DNA from: the human T2T-CHM13v2.0 reference genome, Homo sapiens
Reading direction: 5' to 3' (one strand)
Assembly: GCF_009914755.1 (NCBI RefSeq)
Contig: NC_060935.1
DNA: 64,000 nucleotides
The notes beneath the pieces are model-generated. The model did not search any database and had not been told where the DNA came from. It saw only the letters and a program-made list of their open reading frames with translations. Positions 3,680 to 42,463 of this stretch are shown in pieces. How positions within the stretch are numbered: the stretch's first letter is position 1; each line of letters opens with the position of its first letter. Both the position numbers and the translations under genes were made by a program.

Positions 3680-4510
3680 CTAAGGGAAGAACAGAAAAGT
3701 GAAGAAAGCTTTAATGGTAGGGTGAGTGGCTGGAGTATTGCTGGCAGAGTTAATTCATGAAAAGTAAAAATTAATTTCCAGGTAGAGAAGTAGTAGACCA
3801 TGTAAATAGTATTTCTGGAAGAAGGAATAACAATTGCAGAAGCATAAAGTCATGAAAGGACATAGCTTGTTTTAGAAAGAATGAGAAATTTAGCATGGCT
3901 GAGCCCTAGGGGTCCTAACAGAAAGTAAGAGGTGAGGCTGGACCGGAGAAGGTTGGAGCTAGATCGCTAATCCTTCTACATTAAGTTGAGTAATTTAGTG
4001 TTTATTTTATAGGCACTGAGAGACCAGTAAATGTCCTTAAATAGAAAGTGATGAGGAAGATGACACTGGTGGTAGTGTGACAGAAAGAAAAAAAAATGGT
4101 GGCAGAAAGAACACTTAGAGAGTTGTTGCAATAGTTCAGTAGAGAGAATAGCAAGCCCTATGCTGAGACAGTGGCAGTGGGGACTCTGGGAAAAGGTCAG
4201 GTGCAGAAGATTATGCTGCAGCTTATTCTGTAGCATGTGGAGACCGATTGGGTGGATGGTGTAGCATCATCAAGGCTTCTAGCTTGGGAACTCAGTAGAC
4301 GGTGTTACCATTAATTGAAACAGAAAATATATATAGAGAAACAGATTTGCAGGAGTATGGAGTAGAAACACAGAGTTCAGTTTTACACCTGTTAGGTTTC
4401 TGGTGCTTCTGGGATATTAAAAAAAGAGATGTCCAGAACACCATTGGAAATATGGGTCTGGAGATTGGGAGAGAGGTTGAAACTGAAGGTGAAGTTGAAG
4501 TCATGGATGT
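3680..4510 (-). mobile_element. L2 fragment
   Basis: Purine-rich L2 motifs (gagttcagttttacacctgttaggttt, gagatgtccag..attggaaatatgggtctggag). Confidence 0.7.
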
Positions 4511-26660: not shown

Positions 26661-29600
26661 CAGCCTTAGCTGTTGTTGCCTTTGGGGTCTGGGGAATCTG
26701 AGGAGACTAGGGACTGGAGTGGTCCTCTGGCATGTGCAGCAGCTCTGGAGAGGTGGCCAACAGCTTTTTCATGCAGGTCTGATTCTGTTTCTCTTTACTG
26801 GGCAGAATCTCCTGTCTGAGGTCTATGACCACCCCCACCAGTGTTTTCCAGCCAGCAGTAGTTCCAAACCTCCCTGGGGTGAAGCTCCCAGAGGAAGGGG
26901 TGGGCTGCCATCTTTGCTCTTTGGCAGCCTTAGCCGTTCTGGCTTTCAGAACTTGGAGAGTGCAAGGTGACTGCGGGCTGGAGCAGACCCCTAGCACGGC
27001 ACAGCTGCTGTATGAAAAAACCACCAACTGCTTTTTTACAGAGGTCCCCAGTCCCATTCCTTTTAACTGGGTGGGACCTCCTGACTGGGGTCTCCAGCCA
27101 CCCCCTCCAGTGCGTTTCAGCCAGCAACATGTCCATATCTCCCTGGGATGGAGCTCCCAGAGGGAGAAGCAGGGTGCCACGTTAGTTGTTTCACAGCCTT
27201 CACTGTCGATACCTTCAGGTACTGGAAAATCTAAGGTGACTAGGGACTGGAGCAGACCTTCAGCATACTCCAGCAGCCCTAGGAAAAGTGGCCAGACTGT
27301 TCGTTACATGGGTTCCTGATCCTGTATCTCCTCACTGGGTGGGTCCTCCCAGCCAGGGTCTCCAGCCACACCCTGCTGGGGCTATTGAGCCAGAAGCAGC
27401 TCTGCAACAACCTGGACAGAGCTCCCAGTGGGAGGGGCGGGTTGCCATCTTTGCCATCTTGCAGCCCTGGCCCTTGCTGTCTCCAGGCTCTGGAGAGTCC
27501 ACAGGGGCCAGGAGGTGATGGAACCCCAGCACAGAGCACCTACCTTATGGAAATTGGCCGGGCTATTCTCCACGCAGGTGCTGGTCCTCACTTCTCCTCA
27601 CTGGTTAGGGCCACTAGACCTGGGACTCAACACTACCACCCTGTCCCCACCTGACCACTTCAATCAGAGGCAGCCCAGCATTTCTCCAAAGAGGAAATCC
27701 CAGAGTCAACCTACAATTCCTCTGCTACTGCAGTGGCAGTGCTACTGCCCTAACAGTGCTCAGGCTGGAGAAAGAACAAAGGGCCTACTCACTATGCTGG
27801 CACCTCCAGCACAACACAGCTACCATACAGAAAGGATGGTAGTTCTTCTTCCCTGGGAACCCCCATCCCCCACTCCACTAGGAAGGGCTCCCAGGTCATG
27901 ATGGCGAAACATTGCCCCACCCACGGCTGAGCATACCCACTAGTAGTGGCCCTGAGTTTCCCTGGGGAGAGGCTCCTGGAGGCATCTGACAGCCTATCTG
28001 CTACTGCTACAGAAGTGGTCCTATCCCTGCTGCCCTCAGTCTGGGGAAGAAACAAGAGTCTCAGGGCTACACCTGAGCTTACAGCATGCCACAGTCACCA
28101 TACAGAGAGGAAACAAGTCTCTCTTCCTGATGAGCCCTTAACCCCCTGCTCCCCAAGCTCATGCCAGCAGGGCAGCTGCCCTACCCCACTTGCTGAACAC
28201 TCCCAGTAACAGTGGGTCCACGTTTCTTGGAGTTGGAGCCCCCAGGGGAAACCGAAAGCCCCTTTGCCATTTCCTCTACAGTGGTACTGCCCATGCTACC
28301 CTTGGACTAATGAAGGAGCAAAGACCCTAAGTACCCTATCCACACCTCCAATAAGCAGCAGTCAACCCAAGAAGAGGTGGCCAGTCCATCTCCCACAGGT
28401 CCCACCCACTCCCCCTGTTCATCACCAGGCAGGGAATCCCCCAGCTTGGGCCCACAGCACAGACCCCCATCCTGTTCTGATCACATAGAGCAACTGCTGA
28501 TCTGCATCTCTCTGAGGTGGAGTCCCCAGGATACAAGCAAAAGACCATTGGCCACAACCACTGCTAAGGTCCCTTTTCCTGCTGGCTCCAAGTTGGGGAG
28601 GAAACATAAACCCTGAGATCACCCTAGAGCTGTGATGGGCAGCTTGGGAGTGCCAAGCCATGATCTACAGTCAGCACTCAAGTGGGAGAGGGACCCACAG
28701 TTTCAAAGCATTGAAAGGGACTATGGCTGCAAATGTGAGGAAATATAGGGGAGCGACACAGCTGAGCAAGAGTCTACCTACTGACCACTATGCATAAATT
28801 AACAACTTAACATCACAACTAAAAGAAATAGAGAAGCAAGAGCAAACCAACCCCAAAGCTAGCAGAAGACAAGAAATAACATAAATCAGAGCCAAACTGA
28901 AGGAGATTGAGACACAAAAAAATATTCAAAAGCTGAACGAACCCAGGAATTGGTTTTTTGAAAAAATTAATAAGATGGGCCACCAACTAGACTAATAAAG
29001 AAGAAAAGAGAGAAGATTAAAATAAACACAATCAGAAATGACAAAAGGGATATTACCACTAACCCCACAGAAATACAAAAAATTATCAGAGACTACTACA
29101 AACATCTCTATGCACACAAACTAGAAAAACTTGAAGAGATGGATAAATTCCTGGACACGTACACTCTCCCAAGACTGAACCAGGAAGAAATTAACTCCCT
29201 GAACAGACCAATAATGCGCTCTGAAGTTGAATCAATAAGAAATAGCCTCCAACCAAAAAAAGCCCAGGACCAGAGATTCACAGCTGAATTCTACCAGATG
29301 TACAAAGAAGAGCTGGTATTAAAACTATTCCAAAAAGCTGAGGATGAGGGACTCCTCCCCAACTCATTCTGTGAGGCCAGCATCATCCTGATACCAAAAC
29401 CTGTCAGAGACACAGCAAGAAAAAAAATCCTCAGGCCAATATCCTTGACAAACACAGATGCAAAAATCCTCAACAAAACGCTTGCAAACTGAATCCAGCA
29501 GCACATCAAAAAGCTAATCCACCACAATCAAGCACACATTATCCCTGGGATGGAAGGTTGGTTCAACATATGCAAATTAATAAATGTGATCCATCACATA

Positions 29601-31905
29601 AACAGAACTAAAGACAAAAACCACATGATTATCACAAGAGGGGCAGAAAAGGCTTTTGATAAAATTCAGTATCTTTTCATTCTAAAAACTCTCAATAAAG
29701 TATGTATTGAAGGAACATACCTCAAAATAATAAGAGCCATCTATGACAAGCCCATAGCCAACATTGTATTGAATGGGCAAAAGCTGGAAGCATTCCCTTG
29801 AAAAGGGACAAGACAAGGATGCCCTCTCTCACCACTGCTATTCAACATAATACTGGAAGTTCTGGGCAGAGCAATCAGGCATGAGAAAGAAATAAAGGGC
29901 CTCCAAATAGGAAGAGAGGAAGTCAAACTATCCCTGTTTGCAGACGACATGATTCTATATCTAGAAAACCACATAGTCTCGGCCTCAAGGATCCTTCAGC
30001 TGATAAACAGCTTCAGCAAAGTTTCAGGAAACATAATCAACATACAAAATAACTAGCATTCTTATACACCAACAACAGCCAAGCCAAGAGCCAAATTAGG
30101 AATGCAATTCCATTCACAATAGCCACAAAAAGAATAAAATACCTAGGAATACAGCTAACCAAGGAGGTGAAAGATCTCAACAATGAGAATTACAAAACAC
30201 TGCTCAAAGAAGTCAGAAATGACACAAAAAACATTCCACGCTCATGGATAGGAAGAATCAATATAATTAAAATGGTCATACTGCCTGAAGCAATTTACAG
30301 ATTTAATGTTATTCCTATCAAACTACCAATGACATTCTTCACAGAACTGAAAAAAAAAACAACTACTTTAAAATTTATATGGAACTAAAAAAGAGCCTGA
30401 ATAGCCAACGCAATCTCAGCAAAAGAACAAAACTGGAGGCATCATGTTACCTGACTTCAAACTATACTACAGGGCTACAGTAACCAAAACAGCATGGTAC
30501 TGGTACAAAAATAGACACATAGACCAATGAAACTGAATAGAGAGCCCAGAAATAATACTGCACATCTACAACCATCTAATCTTCAGCAAAGCTGACAAAA
30601 ACAAGCAATGGGGAAAGAACTCCCTAGTCAATAAATTGTGTTGGGATAACTGGCTAACCACATGCAGAAGATTGAAACTGGACCCCTGCCTTACACCATA
30701 TACAAAAATCAACTCAAGATGTGTTGAAGACTTAAATGTAAAACCCAAAACTATAAAAACCCTGGAAGACAGTCTAGGCAATACCATTCTGGACAGAGGA
30801 ACAGGAAAGATTTTATGATGAAAATGCCAAAAGCAATCACAATAAAAACAAAAATTGACAAATGGGATCTAATTAAACTTAAGAGCTTCTGCACAGCAAA
30901 ATAATCTATCAACTGAGTAAGCAGACAACCTACAGAATGTGAGAAAATTTTTGTAAACTATGCGTCTGACAAAGTTCTAATATCCAGCATTTATAAGGAA
31001 CTTAAACAAATTTATAAGAAAATAAAGACAACCCCAATAAAAAGTGGCAAAGGATGTGAACAGACACTTTTCAAAAAAAGATACAATACACATGGTCAAC
31101 AAAAGTGTGAAAAAAAGCTCAATATCACTATCATTAGAGAAATACAAAACAAAGCCACAGTGAAATACCATTTCATACCAGTCAGAATGGCTACCATTAA
31201 AAAGTAAAAAAAAAAAAACAAAAAAACAAAAAAAAAGATGCTGGTGAGGTTGTGGAGAAAAGGAGATGCTTATAAACTGTTGGTGGGAGTGTAAATTAGT
31301 TGAACCATTGTGGAAAGCAGTGTGGCAATTCCTCAGAGCTAAAAACAAAACTACAATTTGACCCAGCAATGCCATTATGAGCATATATCCAGAGAAATAT
31401 AAATCATTCTACCACAAAGACAGTTGCATATGTAGTTCATTGCAGCACTATTCACAATAGCAGAGACACAGAATCAACCTAAATGCCCATCAATGGCAGA
31501 TTGAATAAAGAAAACATGATGCATATACATCATGGAATACTATACAGCCATATAAAAGAACAAGATGATGTCCTTCGTAGGAACATGGATGAAGCTGGAG
31601 GCCTGAGCAAACTAGCACAGGAACAGAAAACCAAACACTACATGTTCTTACTTGTATGTGTTAGCTAAATGATGAGAACACATGGAAACAAAGACGGGAA
31701 CAACTGACACTGGGGCCTACCAGAGGATAGAGGGTAGAAGGAGGGAGAGGATCAGAAAAAATAACTGTTGAGTACTAGGCTTAGTACCTGTTTGACAAAA
31801 TAATCTGTACAACAAACACCCGTGACACAAATTTACCTACATAACAAACCTGTACATGTACCCCTGAACCTAAAATAAAAGTTTAAAAAATTAAAAATTA
31901 AAAGA
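26660..31905 (+). mobile_element. L1PA13-15/L1PREC2-type LINE: tandem-monomer 5'UTR joined directly to ORF2 (ORF1 and EN deleted), plus 3'UTR and A tail
   Basis: ORF2 peptides in the ORF track ([50 protein letters not shown]); 3'UTR ending cccctgaacctaaaataaaagtt. Confidence 0.9.
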
Positions 31906-31924: not shown

Positions 31925-32787
31925 CTCTCTCCCCAACTTTCTAATTTCTGTACTGTTTTTTTTCTTGCTTCTTTGTTCTGAATCAGACCTCCAGTTTGAC
32001 ATTGACTGGGAATAGCGTTGGCCAGCTAACTGTGTTATTCAAATCTTTCATTTGTTATTTCAAAAGGAAAGTTTTCAACACTTCATCATTAAGTTTGCTG
32101 TTTGTTATAGGGTTGTTGTAGATTTACTTTATCAGGCTAATAAGTTCTATTTCTACTTTGCTAAATGATTTTTGTTTGCCTGTTTGTTTTAATGATGAAT
32201 GGATATTGAATTTTAATGCTTTTTCTTTATCTATTAAAATGATCACATGAATTTTTTTGTTGTGTTAATTGTGAATTAGATTGATTGAATTTTGAGTGTA
32301 AACTAAATTTGCTTTCTTGGAGTAAATCCTATTTGATCTCATGCCTTAGCCTTTGTACATTGCTGATTCCATTTACTAATATTTTGTTTAGTTATTGGCT
32401 TCCATGTTCTGAATGAGACCACCTATAATTTTTCTTTATCATCATGTTTTTGTAAAGATGGATGCTAAAATTATTTTGGCCTCATAAAACAAGTTGGTTA
32501 GTGCTACTTTATCTTTATCTTTATTCTTTATTCTCTAGAATAATTTGTAAAAGATTAGCATTATTTTCTTTCTTAAACATTTGGCAGAATTCACCATTGA
32601 AGCTACGTGGGCCCAGAAATATTTTCTTGGGGAGAAGATTTTCAATTACATATTTAATTTCTTTAATAATTTTACATTCATATGTTCAATATTTTTCTCA
32701 TGTCGATTTCAAGTTGTGTTTCTCCTAAGAAGTTTTTCATTTTATCAAATTTTCAAACTTATTGATATAAAGCTATTTATACTGTCC
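31925..32787 (-). mobile_element. Old L1M ORF2 region (probable continuation of 25100-26660)
   Basis: AT-rich degraded ORF2 (aatggatattgaatttt, tttggcagaattcaccattgaagc). Confidence 0.65.
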
Positions 32788-33721
32788 TGGTCGTTCGACA
32801 TAATCTTAGACTTCTTAGAGGCATTGTTTATATTTTCTTATTCTTGTTTCTTTGTCAAAATCTTTTTTGGATTGAGTTAATTGGAAGACCTTGTCTTTGA
32901 GCTCTGAATTTCTTTCTTCTACTTGTTCAATTCTATTGCTGAGACTTTCCAGAGCATTTTGCATTTCTATGAATGTGTTCAATGTTTCCTGAAGTTTTTA
33001 TTGTTTTTACCTTGTGCTATCTATTTCCTTGAATATTTCTCCCTTCATTTCTTGTTTTTTTGGATTTCCTTGCATTGGGGTTCACCTTTCTCTGGTGCCT
33101 CCCTGATTATCTTAATAACTAACCTCCTGAATTCTTTTTCAGGTAAATCAGGGATTTCTTCTTGGTTTGGATCCATTGCTGGTGAGCTAGTATGATTTTT
33201 TTGGTGGTGTTAAAGAGTCTTGTTTTGTCATATTACCAGAGTTGGCTTTCTGGTTCCTTCTCATTTGGGTAGGCTCTGTCAGAGGGAAAGTCTAGGGCTG
33301 AAGGCTATTGTTCAGATTCTTTTGTCCCACAGGGTGTTGCTTGATGTAGTACTCTCCGCCTTTTCCTATGGATATGGCTTCCTGAGAGCTGAGCTGTAGT
33401 GATTGTTATTTCTCTTCTGGGTCTAGCCACCTAGCAAGTCTATCAGGCTCTGGGCTGGTACTGGGGGTTGTCTGCACAGAGTCCTGTGATGTGAACCATC
33501 TATGGGTCTCTCAGCCATTGATACCAGCACAGTATCTGGGGTGTCTCCCCGGTCTGGCAGGAGCAGTCTGCTTCCTTCAGAGGGTCTGTGGGTCCTCTCA
33601 GGATTCCTGATTTATTCCTGCAGTCGTTCTGGAGCTAAAATTCACCATGCGGGCCTCTGCACACTTCTCTGTCTGTCCAAGTCAGAGCTGCAATCTAGTC
33701 CTGCCTCCTGTCTGCCATGAT
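32788..33721 (-). mobile_element. L1PB (L1PBa-type) 5'UTR plus start of ORF1, with an internal 5'UTR junction at 33530/33531
   Basis: Minus strand begins atcatggcagacaggaggcaggactagattgcagctc; ORF1 start cctacccaaATGagaaggaaccag at 33264. Confidence 0.8.
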
Positions 33722-33792
33722 ATGCAATTCTGGTGGAAGAAATTCTCCTCTGGAGAACTGACGTCACTAGGTGTTCTCCTGAGAGTTGTGCC

Positions 33793-33854
33793 AGTCTGGG
33801 GCCTGGGAAGTCCAAGGGCATGGCTTCTGCTCAGCACTGGTGAGGGCCTCCTTG
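33793..33854 (-). mobile_element. MST-type MaLR LTR fragment (62 bp)
   Basis: Minus strand caaggaggccctcaccag..cccttggacttcccaggccccagact matches the in-window MST at 42328-42386. Confidence 0.7.
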
Positions 33855-34007
33855 ACAATCACAAGGTTCCACAATAGGCCATCTGCAAGCTGAGGAGCAA
33901 GGAAGCCAGTTTGAGTCCCAGAGCTGAAGAACTTGGAGTCTGATGTTCAAGGGCAGGAAGCATCCAGCACAGGAGGAAGATGTAGGCTGGATAGCTAAGT
34001 GAGTCTA
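33855..34007 (-). mobile_element. MLT2A1 (ERVL LTR) fragment (153 bp)
   Basis: Minus strand ccagcctacatcttcctcctgtgctggatgcttcctgcccttgaacatcagactccaagttcttcag..cttgctcctcagcttgcagatggcctattgtgg. Confidence 0.85.
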
Positions 34008-34166
34008 CTATTCAAGCCTTTTGTCTGAATTTTAAATTGGCTTGTTTGTCATTTAATTTTTGAGTTGTGAAAGTTCTTTATAGATTCTATTTACAAATTC
34101 TTTGTCATGCATATATATACAATGCAAATAGTTTCTCCCATCTGTAGTTTGCCTTTATGTTTTCTT
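34008..34166 (-). mobile_element. Old L1M host fragment (continues at 41029-41450)
   Basis: tttctcccatctgtagtttgcctttatgttttctt | aatggtatctttgat is collinear across the L1PA insertion. Confidence 0.7.
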
Positions 34167-34199
34167 TTTTTTTTTTTTGCTTTCTGAAAATTTATCTAT

Positions 34200-34425: not shown

Positions 34426-35209
34426 AATGGATTTTAAAGGTTAAATTTTTTTCTGACTTTCAGACATTGCCTTAAAGATAAGTTCAGTTTATTGTAAGTT
34501 GAAAATTAATTTCTGTTACCTATGGGATAAAATATGAAACATTTGAAATATAAATTCCTTGTAAGATTATAGCTTACAACATAAGTTGTTGCGAATGTTC
34601 CAAAATTATTTTTGTGATTTGAATTGGGAAATTATGAAGACAAAAAGAGTACATAAAATTTAGAGTAATTTACGAATAGACTCTTACTTTTTCAAAGTCT
34701 CCCAGAATGTTACTGTGGACATTCAGTAAAGTGATGTGTATGTGTATTTGTTGGTAGGGACGGTGTTCAGGGGGAAGGTACATACACATGTCTGTATAAG
34801 CATATACAAACACATGAACACATATATTTTATTAGCCTAGTCTTTAAGGAGTAATCACACCATTGGTGTCTGTTCGTATAACTAAAGAATGAGAGTAATT
34901 TAACTAAATAAATTTATTCATTTAACTAAATAAATGTATTAATTTTCACATATTTCTTTCATTGTGAGACAGTTTCAGTGGTTGATTTTATTATTATTAT
35001 TATTATTATACTTTAAGTTTTAGGGTACATGTGCACAATGTGCAGGTTAGTTACATATGTATACATGTGCCATGCTGGTGTGCTGCACCCACTAACTCGT
35101 CATCTAGCATTAGGTATATCTCCCAGTGCTATCCCTCCCCCCTCCCCCCACCCCACAACAGTCCCCAGAGTGTGATGTTCCCCTTCCTGTGTCCATGTGT
35201 TATCACTGT

Positions 35210-39029
<3,820 letters not shown>

Positions 39030-39092
39030 TATGATGTTAGCTGGTTATTTTGCTCATTAGTTGATTCAGTTTCTTCCTAGTCTCGATGGTCT

Positions 39093-40106
39093 TTACATTT
39101 TGGCATGATTTTGCAGTAGCTGGTACCGGTTGTTCCTTTCCATGTTTAGTGCTTCCTTCAGGAGCTCTTTTAGGGCAGACCTGGTGGTGACAAAATCTCT
39201 CAGCATTTGCTTGTCTATAAAGGATTTTATTTCTCCTTCACTTATGAAGCTTAATTTGGCTGGATATGAAATTCTAGGTTGAAAATTCTTTTCTTTAAGA
39301 ATGTTGAATATTGGCCCCCACTCTCTTCTGGCTTGTAGAGTTTCTGCTGAGAGATCCGCTGTTAGTCTGATGGGCTTCCCTTTGAGGGTAACCGACCTTT
39401 CTCTCTGGCTGCCCTTAACACTTTTTCCTTCATTTCAACTTTGGTGAATCTGACAATTATGTGTCTTGGAGTTGCTCTTCTTGAGGAGTATCTTTGTGGC
39501 ATTCTCTGTATTTCCTGAATCTGAATGTTGGCCTGCCTTGCTAGATTGGGGAAGTTCTCCTGGATAATATCCTGCAAAGTGTTTTCCAACTTGGTTCCAT
39601 TCTCCACGTCACTTTCAGGTACACCAGTCAGACGTAGATTTGGTCTTTTCACATAGTCCCATATTTCTTGGAGGCTTTGCTCGTTTCTTTTAATTCTTTT
39701 TTCTCTAAACTTCCCTTCTTCCTTCATTTCATTCATTTCATCTTCCATCGCTGATACCCATTCTTCCAGTTGATTGCATCGGCTCCTGAGGCTTCTGCAT
39801 TCTTCACGTAGTTCTCAAGCCTTGGTTTTCAGCTCCATCAGCTCCTTTAAGCACTTCTCTGTATTGGTTATTCTAGTTATACATTCTTCTAAATTTTTTT
39901 CAAAGTTTTCAACTTCTTTGCCTTTGGTTTGAATGTCCTCCCATAGCTCAGAGTAATTTGATCATCTGAAGCCTTCTTCTCTCAGCTCGTCAGTCATTCT
40001 CCGTCCAGCTTTTTTCCGTTGCTGGTGAGGAACTGTGTTCCTTTGGAGGAGGAGGGGTGCTCTGCTTTTTAGAGTTTCCAGTTTTTCTGCTCTGTTTTTT
40101 CCCCAT
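39093..40106 (-). pseudogene. L1 ORF1, disrupted
   Basis: ATG at 40106 (atggggaaaaaacag); the ORF track recovers only a 128-aa internal piece (..EIWDYVKRPNLRL..TPRHIIVRFTK). Confidence 0.9.
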
Positions 40107-40561
40107 CTTTGTGGTTTTATCTACTTTTGGTCTTTGATGATGGTGAGGTACAGATGGGTTTTTGGTGTGGATGTCCTTCCTGTTTGTTAGTTTTCCTTCT
40201 GACAGACAGGACCCTCAGCTGCAGGTCTGTTGGAGTACCCGGCCGTGTGAGGTGTCAGTGTGCCCCTGCTGGGGGGTGCCTCCCAGTTAGGCTGCTCAGG
40301 GGTCAGGGGTCAGGGACCCACTTGAGGAGGCAGTCTGCCTGTTCTCAGATCTCCAGCTGCATGCTGGGAGAACCACTGCTCTCTTCAAAGCTGTCAGACA
40401 GGGACATTTAAGTCTGAAGAGATTACTGCTGTCTTTTTGTTTGTCTGTGCCCTGCCCCCAGAGGTGGAGCCTACAGAGGCAGGCAGGCCTCCTTGAGCTG
40501 TGGTGGGCTCCACCCAATTCGAGCTTCCCGGCTGCTTTGTTTACCTAAGCAAGCCTAGGCA

Positions 40562-40870
40562 ATGGCGGGCGCCCCTCCCCTAGCCTCGCTGCCGCCTTGC
40601 AGTTTGATCTCAGACTGCTGTGCTAGCAATCAGCGAGACTCCGTGGGCGTAGGACCCTCCGAGCCAGGTGCGGGATATAATCTCCTGGTGTGCCGTTTTT
40701 TAAGCCCTTTGGAAAAGTGCAGTACTCGGGTGGGAGTGACCCGATTTTCCAGGTGCCGTCTGTCACCCCTTTCTTTGACTAGGAAAGGGAACTCCCTGAC
40801 CCCTTGTGCTTCCCGAGTGAGGCAATGCCTCGCCCTGCTTTGGCTCGCACACGGTGCATGCACCCACTGA
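40562..40870 (+). CDS. LINE-1 ORF0 (antisense 5'UTR ORF), open for 102 aa
   Basis: MAGAPPLASLPPCSLISDCCASNQRDSVGVGPSEPG matches the known ORF0 N-terminus; Kozak context gcaATGg; expression unknown. Confidence 0.6.
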   Translation: MAGAPPLASLPPCSLISDCCASNQRDSVGVGPSEPGAGYNLLVCRFLSPLEKCSTRVGVTRFSRCRLSPLSLTRKGNSLTPCASRVRQCLALLWLAHGACTH

Positions 40871-41028
40871 CCTGCGCCCATTGTCTGGCACTCCCTAGTG
40901 AGATGAGCCCGGTACCTCAGATGGAAATGCAGAAATCACCCATCTTCTGCATTGCTCACGCTGGGAGCTGTAGACCGGAGCTGTTCCTATTTGGCCATCT
41001 TGGCTCCAGCCACCTCCTATGTTTTCTT

Positions 41029-41450
41029 AATGGTATCTTTGATTAGCAAAAGGAGGAAGGCCGATTTATCAATTTTTTTCTTTTAGGGTCTTTCTCTTTT
41101 TTCTTGTCTAAGAAATCTACAACAAAGTTGCAAAAATATTGCCTTATGTTTACTTTTAGAAGCTTTATAGTTTTAGCTTTTATATTTAAGTCTATGACTC
41201 CTCTCAAATTAATTTATGTACATTATACAACTTAAATTTTGTGTTATGGATAAATTTTATATATCTTTCTATAAGGATAATCAGTTCCAGTATCATATGT
41301 TGAAAAGACTACACTTGTCTGACCTTTGTCAAAGATCAATTAAGTGTAAATGTATAGATCTATTTCTGGACTCTTTTTTTCATTGTATTGATTTCCTTGT
41401 GTATTCTAACATCAATACCAGACTATCCTGATTACTGTAGCTTTGTCTTG
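41029..41450 (-). mobile_element. Old L1M host (continuation)
   Basis: agaagctttatagttttagcttttatatttaagtctatga..cagttccagtatcatatgttgaaaagact. Confidence 0.7.
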
Positions 41451-42102: not shown

Positions 42103-42463
42103 TACTCCAGTTCAAATGTGTTCCCCAAAAAGTATGTGTTAGAAATTTAATTGCCATTGGTGAGACCTGTAAGAGATGCCTAATGGCTATGTGAATTGTG
42201 CCCTCATGAATGGATTAATGCTGTTATCACATGAATGGATTTGTTATTAAGGGAAGGGAGGGTTGGCCCCTTTTTACTCCCTCTCTCTCTCGTCCTACTT
42301 TCTGCATTCCACCATGAGATGACATTGCAAGAAGGCCCTTGCCAGGTGCTGGCACCTTGATCCTGGACTTCCCAGCCTCCAGAACTGTGAGAAATAAACT
42401 TCTGTTTATTATAAATTACCGTCTATGGTATTCTGTTATAGCAGCACAAAGTGGACTAAGACA
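42103..42463 (+). mobile_element. MST (MSTB1-like) solo LTR
   Basis: ggacttcccagcctccagaactgtgagaaataaa..ggactaagaca; 5-bp TSD tcatt/tcgtt. Confidence 0.85.

What the first reader, a model, noticed from the sequence alone, without database searches (positions are those of the whole stretch)
32788..34007. Possible fossil of an MLT2A1-initiated, multi-exon spliced chimeric RNA retrotransposed with an L1PB (LTR-driven 5' transduction)
Seen: on the minus strand, five pieces abut with no spacers: MLT2A1 153 bp (34007-33855), MST LTR 62 bp (33854-33793), a 71-bp orphan (33792-33722), L1PB 5'UTR start 191 bp (33721-33531), and L1PB distal 5'UTR plus ORF1 start (33530-32788). From remembered consensus sequences: the MLT2A1 piece starts at tagact, just downstream of the LTR TATA-like box, and stops at ccttgtgattgt, where the consensus continues GTGAGT (a splice donor). 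The MST piece starts at caaggaggccc (consensus gcAG|caagaagg) and ends at ccagact. The intact MST in this window shows the donor directly: ccagaact|GTgag at 42381-42391. The L1PB joint also fits donor/acceptor sites. Inference: several splice-exact joints plus a 5' end near the LTR start site are hard to produce by DNA deletion, so this looks like the cDNA of a spliced LTR-promoted transcript reading into an L1. MLT2A1 is known to be active around human zygotic genome activation, so this could record early-embryo LTR-L1 chimeric transcription. No poly(A) or TSD survives because the 3' part is cut at ~32788.
Basis: partly seen in the sequence, partly recalled or inferred. Interest (0 to 1): 0.9.

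Follow-up and report, generated by a model that had tools for sequence, protein, structure and literature searches.

The report
Fossil LTR-started RNA fused to LINE-1
This stretch is an intron-less copy of exons, two of which still sit as separate exons on another chromosome, headed by the first exon of an embryo-type retroviral promoter and fused to the front of a LINE-1 element; five similar fusions elsewhere suggest LINE-1 has likely been picking up such RNAs from early primates until recent human evolution.

Summary
Confirmed and extended. The insert (34007-32788, minus) is a processed copy. Exon 1 runs from the MLT2A start site (median LTR position 209) to its GT donor. Exons 2 (MST) and 3 (unique, 63 nt rather than 71) are found 6.5 kb apart, collinear, at chr3:28.11 Mb, with AG/GT at all four ends. 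The L1PB joint is a 961-nt GT-AG splice shared by many copies (67 spliced versus 441 unspliced motif hits). Not found: the donor LTR, a source L1PB in cis, sibling copies, a TSD or poly(A). Five more MLT2-exon-1/L1-start fusions turned up. Three carry poly(A) and TSDs. One is an L1HS-Ta-like element on chrX whose donor LTR matches 134/136 and is apparently listed as active in 4/8-cell embryos. It works like the 5' exon-L1 chimeras of Law and Burns 2026. An LTR-promoter version was not found in my searches.

The parts
33855..34007 (-). Exon 1: MLT2A1-type (HERV-L) LTR piece from the transcription start region to the splice donor
Evidence: 89-92% to intact LTRs over 1-153; median LTR positions 209-361, GT next in 25 of 29; published TSS 205-215 and donor near 350 (PMC8559712).
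33793..33854 (-). Exon 2: internal exon from an MST-type LTR; donor copy at G000:C3:28112978-28113039 (-), AG before and GT after
   Evidence: Best non-self hit, 87%, ungapped; all 6 other MST hits need gaps
33730..33792 (-). Exon 3: unique-sequence exon; donor copy at G000:C3:28106459-28106521 (-), T-rich AG before and GT after
   Evidence: Only other hit in the genome, 60 of 63 identical
33722..33729 (-). 4-8 nt linker between exon 3 and the L1PB start; origin not found
33531..33721 (-). L1PB 5'UTR from its start to an internal GT donor
   Evidence: 10 of 10 long copies fetched continue with a GT donor here; the same donor sequence is in a copy labelled L1PB1 in Table S5 of PMC13174262
32788..33530 (-). 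L1PB distal 5'UTR after an AG acceptor, then the start of ORF1 (ATG 33264, frame lost after 25 codons); cut at 32788
   Evidence: Acceptor AG and 961-nt intron in a long copy on C6; ORF scan
34008..34175 (-). 5' flank: old L1 fragment, late ORF2
   Evidence: 65% to the C12 L1PB body at ruler 3997-4134
32100..32787 (-). 3' flank: old L1 fragment from earlier in ORF2, so the two flanks are out of order (fits a later deletion or two separate old fragments)
   Evidence: 32400-32100 aligns at ruler 2544-2833, score 60 against shuffled maximum 24; 32787-32400 itself scored no better than shuffles

Best explanation
The insert is an intron-less copy of an MLT2A first exon plus two chr3 exons, likely joined in trans to the 5' end of a separately made, 5'UTR-spliced L1PB RNA and likely inserted by L1 reverse transcription, with its 3' part likely lost later by deletion. 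Shown: exon boundaries, the chr3 donor exons, the L1PB internal splice, and TSD-flanked co-insertion for three relatives of the same build. Inferred: that exon 1 belonged to the chr3 transcript; that the join happened RNA end to RNA end (a reverse-transcriptase jump from the finished L1 5' end onto a transcript ending at a splice donor, such as a free 5'-exon splicing intermediate, or trans-splicing); insertion by TPRT at this site; an age of roughly 40-55 My (11 of 125 differences to the chr3 exons; the rate and the L1PB age are recalled). The core claim, a retrocopy of a spliced LTR-started RNA fused to L1, I put at about 0.92; the number below is for the version with the join in trans.
For: Exons 2 and 3 are collinear on chr3 with AG/GT at 4 of 4 ends. 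Exon 1 spans start site to donor with no U3 and no post-donor LTR. The L1PB joint is GT-AG. Same build at five other loci; poly(A) plus TSD enclose LTR exon and L1 together at C12:92.30 Mb (18 nt, 1 mismatch), C6:161.82 Mb (16 of 16) and C23:74.76 Mb (12 nt, 1 mismatch). For trans: in all six the L1 starts within about 0-8 nt of its own 5' end with no shared acceptor. No L1PB in C3:28,086,001-28,106,000. None of the 67 spliced L1PB hits is nearer than 1.9 Mb to exon 3. No L1PB start with this flank lies on C3. For the young chrX case, none of 29 exact AG-preceded L1 starts lies near its donor LTR. Law and Burns found no intronic L1 at 15 of 17 such loci.
Against: No TSD, poly(A) or endonuclease site at this locus, so TPRT here rests on the relatives. 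The donor LTR for exon 1 was not found: none in the 20 kb above exon 2, and the nearest listed MLT2A1 copies, about 330 and 530 kb away, fit poorly (24 and 22 substitutions and 4 and 6 indel blocks, against a median of 14 for top-scoring, hence selected, relatives). Only about 43 kb of the chr3 region was read. One search showed 100 of 441 unspliced L1PB donors, so a cis source further down is not excluded. Cis splicing onto an acceptor just above an L1 is documented (RAP1GDS1; 8q21.11), and a source could have been lost or never fixed.
Confidence: 0.55

Rival explanations
1. Cis 5' transduction: one MLT2A-started pre-mRNA ran on into an intronic L1PB on chr3 and was spliced onto an AG a few bases above the L1 start; that source element has since been deleted, was never fixed, or lies beyond the DNA I read. 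An L1 target site of the T-rich/AG type would itself supply such an acceptor.
For: Exon 3 ends exactly at its GT donor and a short linker follows; published cis cases exist; the L1PB internal splice would simply be one more intron.
Against: No source found; linkers of 0-3 nt at C12 and chrX leave no flank; no cis source seen for the young chrX case.
Confidence: 0.37
2. Same fused RNA, but captured at a DNA break without the L1 endonuclease, so it never had a poly(A) or TSD and was 3'-short from the start. This concerns the integration step and can go with either join.
For: No TSD, flanks out of order; the C10 relative also lacks a TSD and stops only 35 nt further into ORF1.
Against: 7 of 30 spliced L1PB copies examined end early or are interrupted, so 3' loss is common; three relatives show ordinary TPRT marks.
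Confidence: 0.15
3. DNA-level patchwork: nested LTR and L1 insertions trimmed by deletions, or a DNA copy from chr3 that lost its introns by chance.
For: Repeat-dense region; no TPRT marks at this site.
Against: 7 of 7 testable ends at GT/AG, a 6.5-kb and a 961-nt intron removed exactly, a unique exon from another chromosome, and a start at the mapped TSS.
Confidence: 0.03

Closest known systems
mRNA/lncRNA 5'-exon-LINE-1 chimeric insertions (Law and Burns 2026, PMC13174262)
   Same: Spliced first exons in sense, ending at a donor, joined to the first bases of an L1, often with no acceptor, a short untemplated linker and no intronic source L1; includes an L1PB1 case.
   Different: Here the first exon is an ERV LTR promoter exon shared by independent events. 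'MLT2' occurs 0 times in the 6 readable supplements, and none of the 17 rows of Table S5 is at these loci. The window copy lacks the TSD, poly(A) and near-full length they required.
SpIREs, spliced integrated L1s (Larson et al. 2018, PMC5860796)
   Same: GT-AG intron removed from the L1 5'UTR before insertion.
   Different: Different family and junction. They report SpIRE97/622 in 116 of 6,609 L1PA1-6 and none in L1PB; this L1PB junction makes 67 of 508 motif hits, about 13%. Repbase lists a separate L1PBB_5 entry; whether it is this spliced form was not tested.
Cis L1 5' transduction from a hijacked upstream promoter (RAP1GDS1-L1PA2; 8q21.11 source)
   Same: An outside promoter and spliced exons ahead of an L1, in the RAP1GDS1 case a 5'UTR-spliced one.
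   Different: Those have a source L1 in place and several daughter copies; here no source and no sibling were found.
MLT2A-started spliced RNAs of 4/8-cell embryos (Hashimoto et al. 2021, PMC8559712) and MLT2A1-TE chimeric RNAs (as reviewed in PMC13690279)
   Same: Same start window and donor; fusion to LINE-1 is common among these RNAs according to the review.
   Different: Those are present-day transcripts, described as read-through or spliced; here such an RNA is fixed as DNA at a new site together with an L1 5' end.

Membership tests
5'-exon-LINE-1 chimeric insertion (Law and Burns) | 5' piece maps to spliced exons of another locus, in sense | tested here: met
   Exons 2 and 3 at C3:28.11 Mb; exon 1 donor not located
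5'-exon-LINE-1 chimeric insertion (Law and Burns) | Last exon ends at a splice donor | tested here: met
   GT follows exon 3 on C3
5'-exon-LINE-1 chimeric insertion (Law and Burns) | TSD, poly(A) and endonuclease site enclose both parts | tested here: not met
   None at the window copy or at C10; met at C12, C6 and C23. The window copy therefore works like a member but is not filed as one
5'-exon-LINE-1 chimeric insertion (Law and Burns) | L1 near full length | tested here: not met
   5' end complete but only 934 nt remain
5'-exon-LINE-1 chimeric insertion (Law and Burns) | Both parts arrive together in multi-species alignments | not testable with these tools
   No other primate genome is held
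SpIRE | GT-AG intron removed within the L1 5'UTR | tested here: met
SpIRE | One of the described L1PA junctions (97/622, 790, 853, 976) | tested here: not met
   L1PB 5'UTR, donor after about nt 191, 961-nt intron
Cis L1 5' transduction | Source L1 downstream of the exons at the donor locus | tested here: inconclusive
   None in 20 kb read or by flank patterns; the rest of the region was not read
MLT2A embryonic spliced RNA | Start at LTR position 205-215 below a TATA-like box | tested here: met
   Median 209 in 29 relatives
MLT2A embryonic spliced RNA | GT donor near LTR position 350 | tested here: met
   Median 361, GT in 25 of 29; the published figure is approximate
MLT2A embryonic spliced RNA | Expression in 4/8-cell embryos | not testable with these tools
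   No RNA data; the donor LTR of the chrX relative matches a table row marked active

The most novel reading that the evidence does not exclude
HERV-L (MLT2) first exons have been joined again and again to the 5' ends of L1 RNAs and inserted with them, from L1PB some 50 My ago to a human L1HS-Ta element. The join is made in trans onto RNAs that end at the LTR donor. These copies stamp individual heritable L1 insertions as made in cells with MLT2A switched on, that is the 4/8-cell or DUX4 state.
Probability: 0.4. Interest if true: 0.8.

Novelty: new variant of a known kind. Interest (0 to 1): 0.65.

Why it matters
When in development heritable L1 insertions arise is a long-open question. An insertion headed by the first exon of a stage-restricted promoter carries a label of the cell state in which its RNA was made. 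The chrX copy, with an identifiable and apparently embryo-active donor LTR, makes this testable in embryo long reads and pangenomes. The set also gives six natural junctions for deciding between cis splicing, trans-splicing and template jumping in exon-L1 chimeras. As a side result, 5'UTR-spliced copies are much commoner in L1PB (about 13% of motif hits) than reported for L1PA1-6. The window copy itself is a dead fragment with no sign of function.

Tried and rejected
Sibling copies of the three-exon head: none among the 40 scored of 2,594 candidates; the exon 3 query gave 2 places, self and C3. Donor LTR: a private-variant pattern gave self plus 2 unrelated hits; the C3 LTRs at 28.44 and 28.64 Mb fit poorly; searches of the published tables showed no listed MLT2A1 or MLT2A2 row nearer (the tables appear to omit short elements and some places were not displayed). 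Source L1PB: the two C7 hits are not L1 (one read); the 3 other hits are off C3. Twin-priming inversion: no L1PB 3' part on the + strand next to 34007. My early note that the L1PB joint was doubtful, because 29 of 29 hits were contiguous, was wrong: the query selected spliced copies. MST donor fused directly to an L1PB start: 0 hits. Two-mismatch candidates were not MLT2: 0 of 5 read and 0 of 1; 6 other rows, 17 and 2 were not read. No donor LTR stood out for the C6 and C11:27.3 Mb chimeras (best 88-91%). The 3' end of the C11:27.3 Mb L1 was not where I looked. The chrX chimera was not found in the searched supplement of PMC12350158, which was cut when stored, so polymorphism is unknown. No long ORF in the fused exons (longest 59 codons).

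Full report
Observation. Contig numbers are read as chromosome numbers because the window is C11 and chr11; C23 as X is my inference.

Exon 1. The 153-nt piece matches intact LTRs at 89-92% (40 of 2,594 candidates scored). In the 29 best non-self copies fetched it begins at median LTR position 209, about 25-30 nt below a TATA-like box, and ends at median 361; GT follows in 25 of 29. Hashimoto et al. 2021 (PMC8559712; passages read) map embryonic MLT2A starts to consensus 205-215 and donors near 350. So the piece is the known first exon, with neither U3 nor post-donor LTR.

Donor locus. The 'orphan' has one other place in the genome, C3:28,106,459-28,106,521 minus, 60 of 63 identical. The MST piece's best non-self hit is C3:28,112,978-28,113,039 minus, 54 of 62 and ungapped, while the 6 other MST hits need gaps. 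The two lie 6.5 kb apart in the right order. Both are preceded by AG and followed by GT. Chance for these four ends is about 1e-5 under independence.

L1PB joint. All 29 non-self copies fetched were contiguous over 33531/33530, but that query favours such copies. Using only the first 177 nt, I fetched 10 of the 39 non-self hits, chosen from those not listed; all 10 leave the alignment at the joint with a GT donor. I extended three of them; one reached the acceptor, an AG 961 nt on, and the other two gave no match in the 1.6 kb read. Genome-wide 26-nt motifs with up to 2 mismatches gave 67 spliced and 441 unspliced places, reversed controls 0: about 13%, a rough figure since the two motifs need not be equally sensitive. 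Larson et al. 2018 (PMC5860796; passages) report their main spliced form in 1.8% of L1PA1-6 and not in L1PB. So 7 of 7 testable junction ends are GT or AG; the eighth, at the L1 start, has no source to test.

What is missing. No TSD or poly(A). The flanks are old L1 pieces out of order, so DNA was probably lost. No MLT2 or L1PB was seen in C3:28,086,001-28,133,000, read except for 3.5 kb inside the intron. The nearest MLT2A1 rows in Hashimoto's tables (Table S1 part 3 read; number searches of S1 and S2) lie about 330 and 530 kb upstream and fit poorly. No L1PB start with this flank lies on C3. No sibling copy was found. That exon 1 came from the chr3 transcript is therefore inferred.

Relatives of the same build. 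(1) C10:117.966 Mb, found among the 29 spliced copies: MLT2A exon from the same start to the donor, 6 nt, then spliced L1PB, ending 35 nt further into ORF1; no TSD. (2) C12:92.30 Mb, found with the C10 junction as query: a longer MLT2-type exon, starting at the equivalent site with an internal deletion and ending at the donor, then a full-length unspliced L1PB, poly(A) and an 18-nt TSD with 1 mismatch around both. (3-5) A donor-to-young-L1-start pattern gave 21 hits, control 0; the 3 with 0-1 mismatch were all MLT2A exons (LTR about 216-232 to 359-362) and the 1 two-mismatch hit read was not. C6:161.82 Mb has poly(A) and a perfect 16-nt TSD; C23:74.76 Mb has poly(A) and a 12-nt TSD with 1 mismatch; for C11:27.30 Mb the 3' end was not found. 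With assumed round numbers of 8,000 LTRs and 10,000 L1 starts, chance adjacency at a donor is about 0.1 genome-wide, before asking for a missing U3 and an enclosing TSD.

The chrX case. Its 3'UTR has ACA and G where the window's young L1 has GAG and A; that these mark L1HS-Ta is recalled. Its LTR exon matches one intact LTR, C3:5,969,926-5,970,061, at 134 of 136 (next best 95%), and that LTR continues with GT at the break. One extra G sits between the TSD and the exon, as expected for a copied cap (interpretation recalled). By strand, length (about 402 nt) and neighbours this LTR is very likely row 604 of Hashimoto's Table S1 (hg38 chr3:5,976,138-5,976,540), marked active and seen in 18 four- or eight-cell samples; the coordinate conversion is my inference. 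None of 29 exact AG-preceded L1 starts lies near it, and a 3'UTR variant of the chrX L1 is unique. These are narrow tests in one genome.

Mechanism. In all six the L1 begins within about 0-8 nt of its own 5' end, straight after an exon that stops at a donor, with no shared acceptor. I favour joining in trans (0.55) over cis splicing into a lost or distant source (0.37). In five of six the first base after the exon is G, which a template jump at a capped L1 end would give, but G-rich L1 starts and AG/G acceptors would give it too. MLT2 elements are also DUX4 targets in testis and muscle disease (PMC3836709, search listing only) and are active in pineal gland, so the embryo label is likely but not exclusive.

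Prior work and novelty. Law and Burns 2026 (PMC13174262; abstract, passages, sections 10, 13, 14, all 17 rows of Table S5 with long cells cut, term search of 6 supplements; one file too large to read) describe the class, favour trans-splicing, and do not list these loci or MLT2. PMC12350158 (passages and one cut supplement) documents a cis source. PMC13690279 (passages) reviews MLT2A1-LINE1 chimeric RNAs; I did not see the primary study, which may bear on novelty. PMC5753468 (passages) lists L1PBB_5. Nine full-text searches showed no report of MLT2-headed L1 insertions or of this L1PB splice; the library lacks most subscription papers.

Verdict. A real processed chimera; a new LTR-promoter variant of a known kind, recurrent across L1 families. 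Interest 0.65, carried mostly by the recurrence and the young chrX case.

Noticed in passing
L103/L105 (G000:C23:74,756,560-74,762,740, minus) and L108: Young L1HS-Ta-like full-length L1 headed by an MLT2A exon copied from the LTR at C3:5.97 Mb; TSD and poly(A) present.
   Followed up: yes
L074, L091, L100 (G000:C12:92,291,000-92,304,030, minus): TSD-flanked MLT2-exon/L1PB chimera; an Alu and a full-length young L1 later inserted into it.
   Followed up: yes
L101/L107 (C6:161.82 Mb), L102 (C11:27.30 Mb), L045 (C10:117.97 Mb): Three more MLT2A-exon/L1-start fusions; donors not identified.
   Followed up: partly
genome-wide: A 5'UTR-spliced form of L1PB makes up 67 of 508 motif hits.
   Followed up: partly
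window 32788 and L045:2466: The window and C10 chimeras both stop in ORF1 within 35 nt of each other and both lack a TSD; unexplained.
   Followed up: partly
L054 and L068: Spliced L1PB copies whose 5'UTR jumps directly into what looks like ORF2 sequence (recognition recalled): second splice or internal deletion.
   Followed up: no
window 28500-31900 (+): Older L1P in which 5'UTR-like sequence joins ORF2 directly near 28790 (ORF2 match starts at 28813); 5'UTR label recalled; deletion or splice untested.
   Followed up: no
L057 and L061 (C7:104.11 and 78.32 Mb): 97.7% identical over 3.3 kb including flanks: a segmental duplication, so not independent copies.
   Followed up: yes
window 34980-41041 (-): Full-length young L1PA with the older GAG/A 3'UTR letters.
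   Followed up: partly
PMC13174262 Table S5, TPK1 row: The last exon before the L1 looks like a MaLR LTR exon ending at its donor (recognition recalled), so LTR exons may already sit unremarked in that set.
   Followed up: no
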